A program made the position numbers and the translations under genes. Under the pieces are notes generated by a model. The model was not told the DNA's origin and ran no database searches. It was given only the letters and a program-made list of their open reading frames with translations. From the human T2T-CHM13v2.0 reference genome, Homo sapiens, in the NCBI RefSeq assembly GCF_009914755.1, contig NC_060940.1: 64,000 nucleotides of DNA. One strand, 5' to 3'. The first letter of the stretch is position 1, and every line of letters starts with the position of its first letter. Shown here one piece after another: positions 12,003-51,591 of the stretch.

Positions 12003-12822
<820 letters not shown>

Positions 12823-21861: not shown

Positions 21862-22469
21862 AAAGCATCTTACAAATATGCTTTTTGCTCAGACTTATAA
21901 TTTCATCTTTTTTTCCAGTAATTTGAACTCAGTCTTGAAGTCTTACAGTGACAGTTCAGAGCCTTACCTCTTAAACATGTTTCTTATTTACTCATATATA
22001 TTCATAAACTGTTATACATATTTAATTTAGTATTTAGAGGAATCTCAGCATCAAGTTTGTTTCTCTGAGGATGTATGTCCTTTCAACTGATGATATATTC
22101 CTTATCCTCTTTCCACTGTTGAGTCCTAGGCTACATTTCCTATCACATCTTTGCTTTTTCATTGGTTATATAAAATAAACGGTATGAGAAATAATCAGCA
22201 TTGGTTTCTTGTTCGCATGAGATGACAGGAAGACAGATGATATGGACATCAGCTTTCCCAAAAGGATTTTCCAAAGCTGTAATTATCAACACAAACTATG
22301 TTTCAAGAAATCAGGGGTAGTATACTTTATGCTAAAAACGGAGGGTTTGTGAGAATAATGTTACAGCTTTTAATTTTCTCTGTTTAATTTTATCAACTTG
22401 GGAGACTTTTGTTATCCTGGGACAGTTCATTTCATATAAAGCATGCTAACATTATCTTTTTCATTGCAG

Positions 22470-22630
22470 ATTGGAATAATACTTTTAAAAACTTTCTGCT
22501 TGATTCATTCCTGCTGGTACCCATTTATAACCTTGGGATGAGCATCAGCAAATACTATGATATCCAAGAGGTGAATATGTTGTGTTCCTGTTGAAAAGTA
22601 TTCCTAACTCCATAAATTACAGTACAGAAA
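22470..22630 (+). pseudogene. ABCA-subfamily pseudo-exon from the second transmembrane domain (Abca14-like remnant), frameshifted
   Basis: Bounded by ctttttcattgcag| and AAA|GTGAGT. Reads WNNTFKNFLLDSFLLVPIYNLGMSISKYYDIQEVNMLCS, which resembles ABCA3 [31 protein letters not shown]. Length 161 nt (not 3n), with TGA at 22592-22594. Confidence 0.8.
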
Positions 22631-30901: not shown

Positions 30902-31201
30902 ACATTAGACTTTTAGAAGGCTCAGGTGTTTTACATTGGGCAGGTGAACTGGCTAATATTTGTACCCTCAATCATTGCTATGAACTCCACATAATAAGAC
31001 TAGTTCATGAGGAATAAATCTGCCGAAACCATTAACTATATCATGGATACCAAAGAGATTGGGTTAGCAGGTCATATTGCCTTTTGTATTAACCTCCTCT
31101 ATCCACCCCTTCAAGTATATAGTTAAGTAAATGTAGCAATATTTTGGTGATTTCAAATTAAGTGTGTAAGATTATTCACCGGTCCTATTATCCTTTCTTG
31201 A

Positions 31202-31269
31202 GTAGTGTCTTAAAACACAAGAACCAAGGGATCCTTAACTGCTACATTCCCAGCAAGGACTGGGGAAAG
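31202..31269 (+). pseudogene. ABCA penultimate pseudo-exon (Abca14-like remnant)
   Basis: Reads (G)SVLKHKNQGILNCYIPSKDWGK|gtgatg versus ABCA3 [25 protein letters not shown]. Two codons shorter, and the expected acceptor reads GA instead of AG. Confidence 0.85.
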
Positions 31270-31656
31270 GTGATGGTAGAAATCTTGCCCTTGTAACATT
31301 GCATGTTAAGTAAGAGAGCACTAATGGTGGGGAGTATTTGGGATTCGGGCATTTGGAATGGGAGCCTGGCATTGTTGGGAGGAGCAGCAGCGTTAGGTTA
31401 CTTTCCAAACACCCCTAGAGTTTAATTGCCTTGATTTCTTCCCCTAAATCCGACTATTAGTCCATGTCCATCAAGAGATGGCCTCCTCTCACTTTCTCAA
31501 TTCTCTGTTCTTCCGCCTTCTCACCTCACCCTTCTGTGCCTTTTGTCCTCCAACATACACTTGATAGGAGTGGGGGAGTGGAGGAGAGGCTCATCTGAGT
31601 TGGGGGCTGAAGGGGAGATTGCAATGGTAACTGTGTTTTTATTGCTGTTGTTAAAG

Positions 31657-31793
31657 GTGTTTGGCATTTTGGAGCAAGCTAAAGAGCAATTTGATTTAGA
31701 AGACTATTCTGTCAGATCACACTGGAACAAGTCTTCCTGACCTTTGCTAACCCAGAGAAATCATCCAGTGATGATGAAAACGAGGTGCCATGA
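31657..31793 (+). pseudogene. ABCA terminal pseudo-exon (Abca14-like remnant) with frameshift
   Basis: After ttaaag| it reads VFGILEQAKEQFDLEDYSV, then in a shifted frame QITLEQVFLTFANPEKSSSDDENEVP* (TGA 31791-31793). This matches the hallmark ABCA C-terminal motif DYSVSQ.sLEQVF. Confidence 0.92.
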
Positions 31794-31862
31794 GATTCCC
31801 TCTTAAAAAAAAAAAAAAAACAGAAAAAGAAAAAAAAAAGAAATGCCCTACACGTGAGTCCC

Positions 31863-32139: not shown

Positions 32140-33330
32140 CGAGAATTGGGGTGGGGCGCGCCAAGAGGAGCAAGCATTATAGAACGTGGGGAGCATGAGA
32201 AATACACGGAGGTGGAAACGCCGGAGTGGCTGGCGGGTAAAGGCAGCGGGCGCAGATGAAGCGGGCTGGGCGTCCCACGCGCAGAACCGTCCCGGACAGA
32301 AGCCGCAGGGGCTGCGCTGGCTGGAAAAAGGAACGCGAGTACAGCGCGCGTGGCGCGGGGTCTGCTCCAGGACGGAATCTTTTGGGTGGCCCGCATGAGG
32401 GGTTTGCAGGACCCCGGGCCTTTGGGAAGTTATCTGCTAAACTCCAGTAGACCCTGAGGAGCAGCGGCTCATGAATCTTCTTAAACTTCTGTCATCAGCG
32501 GCTGGGCCAGCTGAAGGTGACCATGGCACACGAGGGAGAGAGAAGCCCGCGAGAGGCGGAGAAATGTGGGGTCGTCCAGGAGGGTCGACAAGGCAAAGAA
32601 CCTGAAGACGACCCAAAAGGGTACCTAGGTGGGGCCCTTTCAGGGACTTGGGGCATAGGGTAGGGCGCATGGGACGAGGTGGGTGAGCGCAAGGGACGAG
32701 ATGGGTGTGCGCATGGGACGAGGTGGGTGGGAGCATGAGACGAGGTGGGTGGGGCGGTGGGTGAGGTCTCCGCCCCCAGACGGGCTGGCGAGGAAGCAGG
32801 GAAGAAGTAACGTTGGGCTGGTGAGGCAACAGGTGGGGCGCACTGGAGCTGCGGGATAATAGGTGGAACAAACTGGGGACTACACTCGTGGGCGCACGTG
32901 CGGAAGAGGGACTGAGGAGGTTCTTGCGTGCTCCCCTCGAGCACCGCCGACAGCTTCACCCGCACCTCCTGCCTTCCGCACCGCTGACTCCTACCGCTCC
33001 GCGCACTGCGCGCCCCCAGCCCTAGTGCAGCCAGCTCCCGGCCGGGTCCGCGCGAGGGCCAGGCTGCCAACCTGCCCGCGGGCGGCTGGTGGTTGGGGAG
33101 GGCGTTGGGAGGAGGAGTCCCGCCGGGTGGACGCGCGCCCTTCAGCGGCGGAGGCGGAGGCGGCAGCGGCGAGGCCTGAGGGTGCGTGCTAGGGAGTCCT
33201 GGCGCGTCCTTCTTCTGCCGGCGTCCCCCTGCGCTTGCAGCTGCTCCCCGACGCCCGGGAGGCCCACCCGCTAGCCGCGATGGGCGCGCAGAGCCCAAAA
33301 GGGCGACCCCCAAACAAAACTCACGCATAT
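32140..33330 (+). promoter_or_regulatory. CpG island: promoter/first exon of ABCA15P (CRYM-AS1), donor AGG|GTGCGT at 33181/33182
   Basis: About 1.2 kb CpG-rich island, paralogous to the 15 kb island. Lies upstream of the ABCA ATG exon on the same strand. Confidence 0.75.
32665..32766. repeat. G-rich tandem repeat, about 4 copies of GCGCATGGGACGAGGTGGGTG (about 21-23 nt)
   Basis: Direct reading. Confidence 0.8.
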
Positions 33331-34187
33331 AAATCCTCCAGAGACTTCCTCATCCCCCCGCCAACACACACACACCCACACACACATACACACAATCAAA
33401 TCAAATAGAAGCACTGTTAGGAATTTTATATTGGCTATGCAAAGTGCTTGAACGCACTGACTTTGGAGGCAAATGCCTTGTCCCTAGTCCTGACTAGTCC
33501 AGAATTTATTTGCTGTGACCTATGGCAAATTGCTTGGTTTCTCTAAGCCTCCATTTCCTAAGGCTTATATCTGAAAATAACTATAAGAGGAAAGGATGCT
33601 ATTGTATCCAACTCAGAGGGCAGTCCTGATACTTACATTGCGAGAACATGTTAAGTGTTCCATAAATGGCAGAAGGGGCTGTGGAAGTTCAGTGATTATA
33701 GGTAGTTTAATTTGTCTTAGTTTTCCTTTGTGAAAGCATAAATTACACCAGAGAAAGTCACATATGTAAGGAATACTTTATGCAAAGCTGTTGTCCTAGG
33801 GAAGAGAGACCAGAACTCAGTCTAAACTAACTCTGCTGAAACAAAGTGGGGCAGGGTTTTTAAGCTCTAGGATGAGAGTAGAAAGGTGCTGGAGGGCTGT
33901 CGGAAGCATACTGAGTTGTTTGCTGAGTTTACAAGTGTTTCCTCCGTGATTAGGCCAGCTGTGTTTGCTAATTGGCTCTCAGGGAAGTTAGGCTCCTACC
34001 CTCCCACAGAAACTGGGAGATAGGGGGACCGTCTTCCTTGATGATTGCATTTCAAAGGAATGGCTCCCAGGTCCTTGACAAAGATGATTCTGGTTTGTAA
34101 AACTAGTAAGAGGCTATTAAAAAGAGTTACAGATATCTCAAGACAGAGAAAGAATTTACAGTGAAAAGCTTTCTAAAGAAAATGCTC

Positions 34188-34538
34188 TGTATTAATCTGT
34201 TTTCACACTGCTGATAAAGACATACCCAAGACTGGGCAATTTACAAAAGAAAGAGGTTTATTGGACTTACAGTTCCACGTGGCTGAGGAGGCCTCACAAT
34301 CACGGCAGAAGGTGAAAGGTATATCTCACATAGTGGCAGACAAGAAAGCTTGTGCAGGGAAACTCCCCATTTGAAAACCATCAGTTCTTATGAGACTTAC
34401 TCACTATCATGAGAAGAGCACGGGAACAACCCATCCCCATGATTCAGTCATCACTCACAGGGTCCCTCCCATAACACGTGGGAATTATGGGAGCTACAAG
34501 ATGAGATTTGGGTGTGGACACAGAGTCAAACCATATCA
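34188..34538 (-). mobile_element. THE1 (ERVL-MaLR) solo LTR, inserted in an older ERV1-type LTR
   Basis: Minus strand begins TGATATGGTTTG and ends ATTAATACA. 5-bp TSD TGCTC at 34183-34187 and 34539-34543. Confidence 0.9.
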
Positions 34539-46992: not shown

Positions 46993-47198
46993 AGGGATAA
47001 ACAACTGCTCAAATATTTTAAATCTGTATATTTCTTATTTTAAATATTAAATATTTCTTGTCTTTAAAGCTTGATTATAAAATTAAGTAATTTAAATTTA
47101 AGTGATGTGCTTGTCTAAAATTTACACATCATTAGATAATCTTTTCTTTTTAAAAAATATTTACTCCCTCCATAGAGTTGAACTTCCTCTCTTTTTAG

Positions 47199-47262
47199 AA
47201 GAATGGATTTCTCGGAGTCTGAAAAATTTATGGTTCTTCTCTGGAAGAATTTTATTTTAAAG
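47199..47262 (+). pseudogene. ABCA15P: First coding exon of ABCA15P / CRYM-AS1 (ATG 47203; MDFSESEKFMVLLWKNFILK)
   Basis: Acceptor cttcctctctttttag| and perfect donor AAG|GTAAGT. LLWKN is the universal ABCA N-terminal motif. The gene symbol is from memory of the locus. Confidence 0.88.
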
Positions 47263-47564
47263 GTAAGTTGAACTACCTATAGGGTTATTACAACAGCTCA
47301 GTGGCCACAGGGGGAAATTCTGACAGCTTGATCCTTGAATTTCAATTTTTACTGTTTTACTTTTCTCAGTATGAAGGCTAGGTTATCTCTTCCAAATATA
47401 GAGTTCACACAGAGAGAGATTAATAGCAGGATGTTATGTAGAAAGGAGAAAAAAGTCTAGGAAACTGCTGCTATTATAGAGTAAAGCTGTGTTTTTGGCA
47501 ATCTATATATTCTTTTATGAAGTATCTTTTATCTTAATATAAAAGAATTACAGTTATACACAAT

Positions 47565-48090
47565 ACAGGACTATTCAGCCATGAAAAAGAATGAGATCCT
47601 CTCATTTGCAACAACATAGGTGGAACTGGAGGTCATCATGTAAAGTGAGATAAGCCAGGCACAGAAAGACAAACTTTGCATGTTCTCACTTATTGGTAGA
47701 AACTAAAAATTAAAACAATTGAACTCATGGAGATGGAGAGTAGAAGGATGGTTAACAGAGGCTGGGAAGGGGTAGCTTGGGGTAGGTAAGGGGGAAGTGG
47801 AGATGTTTAATGGGTACAAAAAAAACTTGAAAGCATGGATAAGGCAGTATTTGCTAGCACAACAGAATGACTAGAGTCAAAAATAATTTGATTGCACATT
47901 TAAAAATATCTAAAAGAGTGTAATTGGATTGTTTGTAACACAAGGGATAAATGCTTGAGGGAATGGATACCCAATTTACCTTGATGTGATTATTATGCAT
48001 TGTGTGCCTGTATCAAAATATCTCACGTAACCCATAAATATGTATACCTGCTATGTACCCACGAAAATTAAAAATTAAAAAATTCAAAAA
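47565..48090 (+). mobile_element. L1MA 3' end in the intron between the two ABCA15P coding exons
   Basis: L1MA 3' UTR: tcagccatgaaaaagaatgagatcc...ctatgtacccacgaaaattaaaaatt. Confidence 0.85.
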
Positions 48091-48153
48091 TGAACTTGCA
48101 AAGTTAATAACCTCTTAGGGCAATTAACATAATCTTTTTTCTTCTTCTTCTAG

Positions 48154-48423
48154 AGGCGGCGATGTATTGCTTTAGTTGTGGAAATGGTCCTCACATTTCT
48201 GTTTAGTGCTGCGCTTTTGGCAACACGCTCTGTTATTACTATAAATAAGAACGGACCTTTCGATTTTGCTGCTCAGCCTGTCGATGAAGTGCCTTTCTAC
48301 ATCACAGCTTCCTTAATTTCTCCTTCTCCTTTGGAATTGGCTTACGTGCCTTCCAGAAGTACTGTGGTTCAGGGTATTATTGAAAGAGTGAAAATGGATT
48401 TAAACCCTCAAATGAAAGGTTAG
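48154..48423 (+). pseudogene. ABCA15P: Second coding exon of ABCA15P / CRYM-AS1 (TM1 and start of extracellular domain 1); read-through of the old donor gives a stop at 48421-48423
   Basis: Acceptor ttcttcttcttctag|. RRRCIALVVEMVLTFLFSAALLATR...LELAYVPSRSTVVQGIIERVKMDLNPQMK aligns without gaps to ABCA3 [25 protein letters not shown]...[29 protein letters not shown]. Ancestral phase-1 donor G|GTTAGA at 48418/48419. Confidence 0.88.
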
Positions 48424-48955
48424 AAATTAACATTTTCTGAAAAAACATACAGAATTACTAAATCGATTTAGTGAAGACATACTTACAACCTTATTAACTG
48501 GTTCTTAACCTCCCAAGTAAAACATCGTTGGAATCCTCATACTAAGTATAAATATTATGGACTTTGTTAAACTTGAAAGTTAAATTTATATAAAATATTT
48601 TGTTCATAGAGCCCAGAACAAATAGTAATATTTCAAAATGAGATGACCAATTATTATTATTATTCTAAGTTGTTATCCAGTTTTGTGATACTGTTTTTTC
48701 TATCTGGTTGTGCTTCTTGAACCTGGGTAAGTATACCTCCAGGGGTGTGTGATTTTGTGCCACAGGTCAGTGGTCAGTTATTTAAAATAATGTTTTATAT
48801 TAAAATGTGGTGTGAGTAATATAGGAAGGCTTTAGAAAACACTTAAGCTATGTAGAATTATTTTAAAAGCCCTCAGTCTCTCACTTACCTTCATATTCCC
48901 GGATCAGTTTCTTACCTCTTTCTCTTAGAGGTAAATACTGTGAGAAGTTTAGGTC

Positions 48956-51591
<2,636 letters not shown>

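What the first reader, a model, noticed from the sequence alone, without database searches (positions are those of the whole stretch)
47199..48423. The 'antisense lncRNA' keeps an intact spliced 109-aa ORF: ABCA N-terminus with LLWKN sorting motif and one TM helix
Seen: two exons with strong splice sites give an uninterrupted 20+89 codon frame (MDFSESEKFMVLLWKNFILK|RRRCIALVVEMVLTFLFSAALLATRS...PQMKG*). Exon 2 up to the old donor is 265 nt and gap-free against the equivalent ABCA3 segment. The weak donor G|GTTAGA, when unused, supplies Gly plus TAG, so the stop would lie in a terminal exon and escape NMD. I found no next ABCA exon (GFxSExxFExY-like) in the remaining 15 kb. Known: xLxxKN is an ABCA targeting motif for post-Golgi vesicles. 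Inference: possibly a type II membrane microprotein salvaged from a dead transporter. By contrast, all three coding remnants of the neighbouring gene carry lesions.
Basis: partly seen in the sequence, partly recalled or inferred. Interest (0 to 1): 0.75.

Follow-up and report, generated by a model that had tools for sequence, protein, structure and literature searches.

The report
Intact leftover start of dead ABCA15
The 109-codon open frame is real, but it is the first two coding exons of a recently dead lipid-transporter gene (ABCA15P, also called CRYM-AS1), it is already named in databases, and nothing tested here shows it is kept by selection.

Summary
ATG at 47203, 20 codons to a consensus donor at 47262/3, then 89 codons from 48154 to TAG at 48421-48423, which arises by reading through the old donor AAG|GTTAGA.

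It is the N-terminus of the ABCA15 orthologue (tree). The gene is modelled full-length in Old World monkeys at 1641 and 1522 aa, 91-93% identical over exon 2. In human T2T the rest is missing or scattered and broken.

- **Already named.** The 106-109 aa orthologues in orang-utan, capuchin and tarsier are called 'putative uncharacterized protein CRYM-AS1'. RefSeq calls the locus ABCA15P, a transcribed pseudogene.
- **An intact frame is expected by chance.** P = 0.19-0.83, depending on when the gene died.
- **No extra constraint.** Human-lineage amino-acid changes are 3 of 105 in the ORF and 14 of 299 in other ABCA15 pieces, one of which carries a stop (Fisher p = 0.58).
- **Poor leader.** The RefSeq transcript has a 515-nt leader with 6 upstream ATGs.
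- **The Gly-TAG ending is old.** It recurs in 6 of 6 short primate-type records.

Verdict: ordinary, already known. Translation could not be tested.

The parts
32141..32628 (+). Non-coding first exon of NR_026675.1 (ABCA15P / CRYM-AS1). It supplies most of the 515-nt leader and all 6 upstream ATGs.
   Evidence: Hub annotation. In one search, uATGs are at transcript positions 55, 116, 255, 331, 383 and 424, with uORFs of 67, 64, 20, 44, 42 and 13 codons. The uORF from 383 (gtgaccATGG) ends at 511; the main ATG is at 516.
47176..47262 (+). Transcript exon 2, the ancestral first coding exon of ABCA15. It has an in-frame TGA at 47179-47181, an ATG at 47203, and 20 codons holding the xLxxKN motif (LLWKN).
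   Evidence: 18 of 20 residues match the langur and mangabey full-length models.
47263..48153 (+). Intron, 891 nt, with a GTAAGT donor and a pyrimidine-rich acceptor.
48154..48418 (+). Ancestral second coding exon, 265 nt, phase 1 at its 3' end. It holds the basic stretch RRR, TM1 (ORF residues 24-42) and the first ~63 residues of the first extracellular domain.
   Evidence: Over its alignable residues it is 96% identical to the chimpanzee model, 93% to langur and 91% to mangabey.
48419..48423 (+). Old donor GTTAG. When unspliced it completes a Gly codon (48418-48420) and gives TAG (48421-48423).
   Evidence: The same ...KG-stop ending occurs in orang-utan, capuchin, tarsier and three unnamed short records.
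48424..49871 (+). Retained former intron serving as 3' UTR of the RefSeq transcript. It contains an Alu-like repeat. There is no AATAAA or ATTAAA in the 90 nt before the annotated end; only TATAAA at 49840.
   Evidence: Hub annotation.

Best explanation
The frame is a relic. ABCA15 is one of a cluster of ABCA3-like full transporters next to CRYM. It is a working gene in rodents and is modelled full-length in Old World monkeys.

In the lineage to humans the body of the gene was lost or scattered by deletions and rearrangement. The promoter-proximal part survived as a spliced transcript: a non-coding exon plus coding exons 1 and 2. With nothing close by to splice to, the transcript runs through the old exon-2 donor into the former intron.

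That donor, G|GTTAG, happens to spell Gly-stop, so the leftover frame closes at 109 codons. The frame is still open because too little time has passed for a stop or frameshift to be likely, not because a protein is maintained.

Any translation product would be an N-in, single-pass fragment: motif, TM1 and about 63 residues of a domain that cannot fold without the rest. It would most probably be made at a low level and be unstable.

- **Shown:** anatomy, orthology, loss of the rest of the gene, lack of excess constraint, the upstream ATGs.
- **Inferred:** no protein-level function.
For: 1. **Orthology.** In a tree of the first 112 residues of 29 rows, the human ORF sits in a clade of 25 rows (support 100/99). 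That clade holds the protein named Abca15 in Apodemus. It is separate from the clade holding two proteins named Abca14 (100/99). Exon 2 is 50.6% identical to that Abca15 and 36-39% to the Abca14s.
2. **Intact elsewhere.** Langur has a 1641-aa model (a cluster of 44 members) and mangabey a 1522-aa model, 93% and 91% identical over exon 2.
3. **Dead in human T2T.**
   - The orang-utan model's residues 108-232 find only a 54% match at chr16:2.35 Mb.
   - The chimpanzee model's residues 109-584 find nothing above 61% identity. A search with residues 109-434 alone gave a best hit of 54%.
   - Pieces for residues 287-312 and 324-366 lie about 21 kb downstream, outside the window. The second carries a stop.
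   - The NBD2 and terminal exons lie about 1 Mb away on the minus strand.
4. **Chance survival.** P(intact) is 0.72-0.83, 0.44-0.63 and 0.19-0.40 if the frame has been neutral since the chimpanzee, orang-utan or monkey split. The divergence and indel rates used are assumed from general knowledge.
5. **Rate.** Human-derived changes are 3 of 105 in the ORF and 14 of 299 in the other ABCA15 pieces (p = 0.58). Counting ambiguous sites, 6 of 105 against 20 of 299 (p = 0.82).
6. **Leader.** It has 6 uATGs.
7. **Fold.** A single-sequence AlphaFold2 model was made of the orang-utan 109-aa orthologue, which is 94% identical to the human exon 2. It gives one long helix (3-52), no confident structure at 53-87 (pLDDT below 50 at 60-67 and 70-78), and pTM 0.31.
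8. **Prior knowledge.** Passages of PMC2329642 list ABCA14P, ABCA15P1 and ABCA15P2 as pseudogenes of rodent-only genes at 16p12. RefSeq types the locus as a transcribed pseudogene (hub annotation).
Against: - The frame, both splice sites, the start codon and its good Kozak context are all intact, and the transcript exists.
- No surveyed primate model shows a disrupted exon 1-2 frame. This is weak, because gene models are built to be open and many of these species have the whole gene.
- Observed human-lineage replacements (3 residues, at least 4 nucleotide changes) are below the fully neutral expectation of 6.9 since the monkey split. My own Poisson estimate, from no call, gives roughly P = 0.18, which is not significant and is explained if the gene worked for part of that time.
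- No synonymous-site data, ribosome profiling, proteomics or population data could be examined, so translation is untested rather than excluded.
Confidence: 0.85

Rival explanations
1. Salvaged microprotein. The 109-aa product would be translated and inserted N-in through TM1. Its xLxxKN motif would sort it to post-Golgi compartments. There it would act on its own or interfere with ABCA3-type transporters.
For: There is an intact frame, a strong Kozak context and a stop in the terminal exon. There is a hydrophobic helix at residues 24-42, with 6 K/R against 3 D/E in residues 1-23 ahead of it, which fits N-in topology. The motif is present. Databases carry the ORF as a putative protein. Replacements are somewhat fewer than the fully neutral expectation.
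Against: Intactness is expected by chance. Its replacement rate is not lower than that of the other ABCA15 pieces. There are 6 uATGs. The luminal tail is not predicted to fold alone. No Pfam family reaches E<=1. That is weak, because I did not check what those files list or whether they were cut when stored.
Confidence: 0.08
2. The transcript matters as RNA and the ORF is irrelevant. It would be an antisense regulator of CRYM, made from the shared region around the alternative CRYM first exon.
For: Exon 1 (32141-32628, + strand) lies inside the intron of the CRYM isoform that starts at 34355 on the minus strand, and RefSeq marks a silencer and an enhancer at 32979-34269 (hub annotation). 18 papers hold the term CRYM-AS1, mostly cancer lncRNA studies. 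I saw only the search listing.
Against: This reading is compatible with the best explanation rather than opposed to it.
Confidence: 0.25
3. The short form is a minor product. The donor at 48418 would mainly splice to the downstream remnants at about window-equivalent 69733 and 70191, giving other products that are targets of nonsense-mediated decay.
For: The donor is conserved and is used in species with the full gene. Two ABCA15 exon remnants lie 21-22 kb downstream on the same strand. The annotated 3' end at 49871 lacks a canonical polyadenylation hexamer.
Against: RefSeq lists one transcript, which reads through the donor (hub annotation). The donor has the rare T at +3.
Confidence: 0.1

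Closest known systems
ABCA15P / CRYM-AS1 (RefSeq NR_026675.1), with the database protein name 'putative uncharacterized protein CRYM-AS1'
   Same: It is this very locus. Exons 47176-47262 and 48154-49871 are the annotated exons. Orthologous models of 109, 108 and 106 aa in orang-utan, capuchin and tarsier carry that protein name.
   Different: Nothing differs. I did not see the human protein record itself; its existence is inferred from the orthologue names.
Rodent Abca15 and the Old World monkey full-length ABCA3-like models
   Same: The first 108 residues are orthologous: start codon, xLxxKN, TM1, the start of ECD1, and the same phase-1 exon boundary.
   Different: The human locus lacks ECD1 beyond about 63 residues, both membrane domains and both nucleotide-binding domains in any usable arrangement.
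ABCA3 (solved structures 7w01 and 7w02)
   Same: The N-terminal architecture is the same. Exon 2 aligns to chain residues 41-122.
   Different: It is only a distant paralogue (E 0.015). ABCA3 is an intact 1704-aa-class transporter (size recalled). The trafficking experiments on the motif are recalled from memory, not read here.
Other transcribed ABC pseudogenes (ABCA17P, ABCC6P1/P2) in PMC2329642
   Same: They are transcribed, spliced remnants of ABC transporters at 16p (passages).
   Different: That paper lists ABCA14P, ABCA15P1 and ABCA15P2. By my own coordinate conversion from hg18, none of the three covers the exon pair at 47176-48423.

Membership tests
ABCA subfamily full transporter | N-terminal xLxxKN motif | tested here: met
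   VLLWKN is at residues 11-16. The motif definition comes from a passage of PMC3724490.
ABCA subfamily full transporter | TM1 followed by a large extracellular domain before TM2 | tested here: not met
   TM1 is present at residues 24-42. The domain stops after about 63 residues, and the following exons are absent from the window and from T2T.
ABCA subfamily full transporter | Two membrane domains and two nucleotide-binding domains in one reading frame | tested here: not met
   Pfam finds no family at E<=1 for exon 2 or for the orang-utan 109-aa orthologue. The NBD2 exons lie about 1 Mb away on the opposite strand. The genome search marks stops inside two of those matches; its matches can run past exon ends.
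ABCA15 orthology group | Groups with named Abca15 rather than Abca14 in a tree | tested here: met
   One search gives a clade of 25 rows with support 100/99. Pairwise identity is 50.6% against 36-39%. No Abca16, Abca17 or Abca3 sequence was in the tree.
Unitary (non-processed) pseudogene | Orthologue intact in related species; essential exons lost or broken here; introns retained | tested here: met
   Full-length monkey models exist. Exons are missing and a stop lies in a downstream remnant. An 891-nt intron is retained.
Functional microprotein | Purifying selection on the short ORF itself | tested here: inconclusive
   There is no excess constraint compared with the other ABCA15 pieces, and intactness is compatible with chance. 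No DNA of other primates was available, so dN/dS was not computed.
Functional microprotein | Evidence of translation (ribosome footprints, peptides) | not testable with these tools
   The only check was a text search of the supplements of PMC10032668, with 0 occurrences.

The most novel reading that the evidence does not exclude
The N-terminal stub of dead ABCA15 is translated in testis as a 109-residue, N-in, single-pass membrane protein. It keeps the ABCA xLxxKN sorting signal. The read-through-donor form seen as gene models in orang-utan, capuchin and tarsier would then be an old, regulated short isoform that outlived the transporter. It might act as a decoy for the machinery that sorts ABCA3-type transporters.
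Probability: 0.06. Interest if true: 0.45.

Novelty: already known. Interest (0 to 1): 0.12.

Why it matters
If the ORF were a maintained protein, it would be a clean example of a transporter's sorting signal and first helix surviving as a microprotein after the gene died.

As it stands, it is a textbook case of how an open frame in a young unitary pseudogene can look meaningful. The parent gene is still modelled whole in Old World monkeys, so an intact 109-codon leftover carries almost no information. The useful outcome is a map of where the pieces of human ABCA15 lie, and a clear statement of which data would settle translation.

Tried and rejected
- **dN/dS across primates.** Not possible. 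No primate DNA could be fetched here, only protein models. I substituted a protein-level relative-rate test.
- **Pfam** on exon 2 and on the orang-utan 109-aa orthologue: no family at E<=1.
- **PDB sequence search.** It returned only a weak ABCA3 match plus a chance match to NADH dehydrogenase chain 3.
- **Exhaustive representative search.** 16 proteins had E<=0.001.
- **Literature on translation.**
  - One search covered an accession recalled from memory, an old gene alias and the phrases 'uncharacterized protein CRYM-AS1' and 'CRYM antisense'. It found 2 papers, both through the alias, and neither was opened.
  - The supplements held for PMC10032668 had 0 occurrences.
  - The supplements of PMC13275300 could not be opened and may bear on peptide evidence.
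- **Earlier findings of this scan.** Closed.
- **Recent duplication of the ORF.** Rejected: exon 2 occurs once in T2T.
- **The weak hits at 12461-12580** (E 0.58-0.86). Treated as chance.
- **Polyadenylation signal at the annotated 3' end.** No AATAAA or ATTAAA in 49780-49900; only the variant TATAAA at 49840.

Full report
**1. The observation**

- The ATG is at 47203, in context AGAAGAATGG. An in-frame TGA lies at 47179-47181, so the frame cannot start earlier.
- Twenty codons run to a consensus donor, AAG|GTAAGT, at 47262/47263.
- After an 891-nt intron and a strong pyrimidine-rich acceptor, 89 more codons run from 48154 to TAG at 48421-48423.
- The old exon end is at 48418 (AAG|GTTAGA, phase 1, exon length 265 nt). 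Read through, it gives Gly then TAG.
- These edges are those of exons 2 and 3 of RefSeq NR_026675.1 (hub annotation). That transcript's last exon continues to 49871, so the stop is in the terminal exon.
- 'Gap-free against ABCA3' is approximate. phmmer aligns 82 residues to 82 residues with two compensating one-residue gaps, at E 0.015.
- No further ABCA-like exon lies between 48424 and 64000. tblastn found none with 12 relatives at E<=1 or with 10 relatives at E<=0.1.

**2. What it is**

A word-indexed protein search with exon 2 returned 12 longer proteins at E<=0.01 among 106 candidates:

| Species | Model length | Identity over exon 2 |
|---|---|---|
| Chimpanzee | 584 aa | 99% |
| Bornean orang-utan | 232 aa | 94% |
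| Colobus, snub-nosed monkey, macaque | 193-210 aa | 90-94% |
| Langur (cluster of 44 members) | 1641 aa | 93% |
| Sooty mangabey | 1522 aa | 91% |
| Tree shrew, lemurs, squirrel | full length | 55-64% |

The near-length search returned 6 proteins among 9 candidates. They include 109-, 108- and 106-aa models in Sumatran orang-utan, capuchin and tarsier. All three are named 'putative uncharacterized protein CRYM-AS1'. So the ORF already has a database name, taken from the human locus's older name. I did not see the human record itself.

A third search, seeded with the squirrel N-terminus, brought in rodent proteins named Abca15 and Abca14. In a maximum-likelihood tree of the first 112 residues of 29 rows, the human ORF falls in a clade of 25 rows with the named Abca15 (support 100/99). 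The named Abca14 proteins are in a separate clade (100/99). No Abca16, Abca17 or Abca3 row was included. This agrees with the RefSeq name ABCA15P.

**3. The rest of the gene in the human genome**

- **Orang-utan model.** In T2T it matches only exon 2 and a 54% match at chr16:2.35 Mb, which I take to be ABCA3 by position (recalled).
- **Chimpanzee model.** It joins exon 2 directly to a part that equals residues 685-1165 of the langur protein. That part has no close match in T2T. Nothing beyond exon 2 exceeds 61% identity, and a search with residues 109-434 alone gave a best hit of 54%. The genome tool warned that a stricter first look was used.
- **Mangabey model**. It finds:
  - a remnant at chr16:21274128-21274322 (+);
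  - NBD2 exons at chr16:22.27-22.28 Mb (-).
- **Fetched stretches.**
  - Two exon remnants lie just outside the window, at window-equivalent 69733-69810 (26 aa) and 70191-70319 (43 aa). Both are 88% identical to langur, and the second carries an in-frame stop.
  - Four exons for residues 1391-1641 lie on the minus strand at 22272204-22278339, 86-96.5% identical to langur.
- **Earlier literature.** By my own conversion of hg18 coordinates, these correspond to ABCA15P1 and ABCA15P2 of PMC2329642 (passages read). That paper's list does not cover the exon pair studied here.

The human gene is thus dismembered. Different apes keep different amounts of it, which points to stepwise and fairly recent decay.

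**4. Is the open frame more than chance?**

From the codon content, stop-creating and start-destroying changes plus four splice-site bases amount to 16.3 site-equivalents. I assumed per-lineage divergences of 0.0062, 0.0155 and 0.031, and an indel-to-substitution ratio of 0.05-0.14. These values come from general knowledge, not from a call.

| Neutral since the split from | P(frame intact) | Expected replacement substitutions |
|---|---|---|
| Chimpanzee | 0.72-0.83 | 1.4 |
| Orang-utan | 0.44-0.63 | 3.5 |
| Old World monkeys | 0.19-0.40 | 6.9 |

- By parsimony on the alignment, the human lineage has three replacements: K7E and V49T, both shared with chimpanzee, and K51N. That is at least four nucleotide changes.
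- The chimpanzee model lacks one residue at the K51N position.
- The monkey lineage, where the gene is whole, shows at least as many changes in this segment. This part of the protein is therefore poorly constrained in any case.

As a within-gene control I polarised differences against two monkey and eight outgroup proteins.

- Human-derived changes are 3 of 105 aligned ORF residues and 14 of 299 residues of the other ABCA15 pieces (Fisher p = 0.58).
- With ambiguous sites included, 6 of 105 against 20 of 299 (p = 0.82).
- Two sets of rows were left out of the tally: matches below 80% identity, and the upstream remnants at 31654-31790.
- Two of the 14 changes sit at an exon edge and may be intronic.

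There is no sign that the ORF is better kept than the other pieces, one of which carries a stop.

**5. The Gly-TAG ending**

All six short records that read through the donor end in KG-stop: orang-utan, capuchin, tarsier and three unnamed records. Species with longer models splice the same phase-1 site to an exon starting VLGF/VVGF. The donor sequence is therefore ancestral, and the stop is a by-product of it.

**6. Would it be translated?**

- The start context is good.
- In the only annotated transcript the ATG is at position 516 of 2293, behind six upstream ATGs with ORFs of 13-67 codons. One has A at -3 and G at +4 and ends 5 nt before the main ATG.
- The four upstream ORFs that start at positions 55, 116, 255 and 331 end more than 100 nt before the last exon junction. 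If translated, they could expose the RNA to nonsense-mediated decay.
- The product would have a hydrophobic helix at residues 24-42, with more basic residues on the N side. This fits the N-in topology of the parent.
- A single-sequence AlphaFold2 model was made of the orang-utan 109-aa orthologue. It shows one long helix (3-52) and a short one (88-103), with pLDDT below 50 at 60-67 and 70-78 and pTM 0.31. A single-sequence model is weak evidence.
- Pfam recognises nothing.
- The five supplementary files held for PMC10032668 hold no occurrence of CRYM-AS1, ABCA15P or the first nine residues. I did not check what those files list, or whether they were cut when stored, so this is a weak negative.

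**7. Verdict**

This is an already annotated transcribed unitary pseudogene. Its first two coding exons have not yet been hit by a disabling mutation. The microprotein reading is not excluded, but it has no positive support beyond the open frame itself. I give it about 6-8%.

- Papers seen as passages: PMC2329642 and PMC3724490.
- Papers seen only as search listings: the 18 CRYM-AS1 papers and the ncORF papers.
- The experiments on the xLxxKN motif in ABCA3 trafficking are recalled from memory, not read here.

Noticed in passing
window 22451-22597 (+): An ABCA exon remnant lies here. It is 48-52% identical to proteins named Abca14 and 36-49% to Abca15-type proteins. It coincides with exon 2 (22470-22630) of the predicted lncRNA LOC105371125, so that lncRNA appears to reuse an old ABCA14-type exon and its splice sites.
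   Followed up: partly
window 31195-31275 and 31654-31790 (+): These are the last two exons of an ABCA gene. The second ends at the ancestral stop, and a frameshift at about 31713 splits it into two frames. It is 96-100% identical to the C-terminus of the langur ABCA15-type model. It lies about 350 nt upstream of exon 1 of ABCA15P.
   Followed up: partly
window 30902-31798 against chr16:22272196-22272804 (-): The terminal-exon region in the window is 90.9% identical over 373 nt, intron flank included, to the terminal exon of the ABCA15 pieces at 22.27 Mb. A neighbouring stretch is 81% identical over 245 nt. The 22.27 Mb copy keeps an open 47-codon frame. DNA this similar suggests a primate-age duplication or gene conversion rather than the old Abca14/Abca15 split. 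It is unresolved which copy belongs to which gene.
   Followed up: partly
chr16:22270169-22270363 (-), outside the window: A second copy of the NBD2 exon for residues 1388-1452 lies here, 78% identical to the monkey proteins. The copy 8 kb away is 93.5% identical. It may be a remnant of another paralogue of the cluster.
   Followed up: no
Chimpanzee model P0001, residues 109-584: The chimpanzee model splices exon 2 in frame to exons for the R1 domain and second membrane domain (Pfam ABC2_membrane_3, E 1.9e-25). These exons have no close counterpart in human T2T. That suggests a deletion on the human side, or a structural difference in this duplication-rich part of 16p12.
   Followed up: partly
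window 48226-48237 (ORF residues 49-52): Human reads T-I-N-K. The chimpanzee model and two unnamed short records lack one residue here. Orang-utan and the monkeys read V-I-K-K. So this A-rich stretch has an in-frame one-codon length difference between human and chimpanzee.
   Followed up: no
window 49871: The annotated transcript end has no AATAAA or ATTAAA within 90 nt upstream, only TATAAA at 49840. It is followed by GT, then a T-run about 30 nt downstream. The true 3' end of the RNA may differ from the annotation.
   Followed up: no
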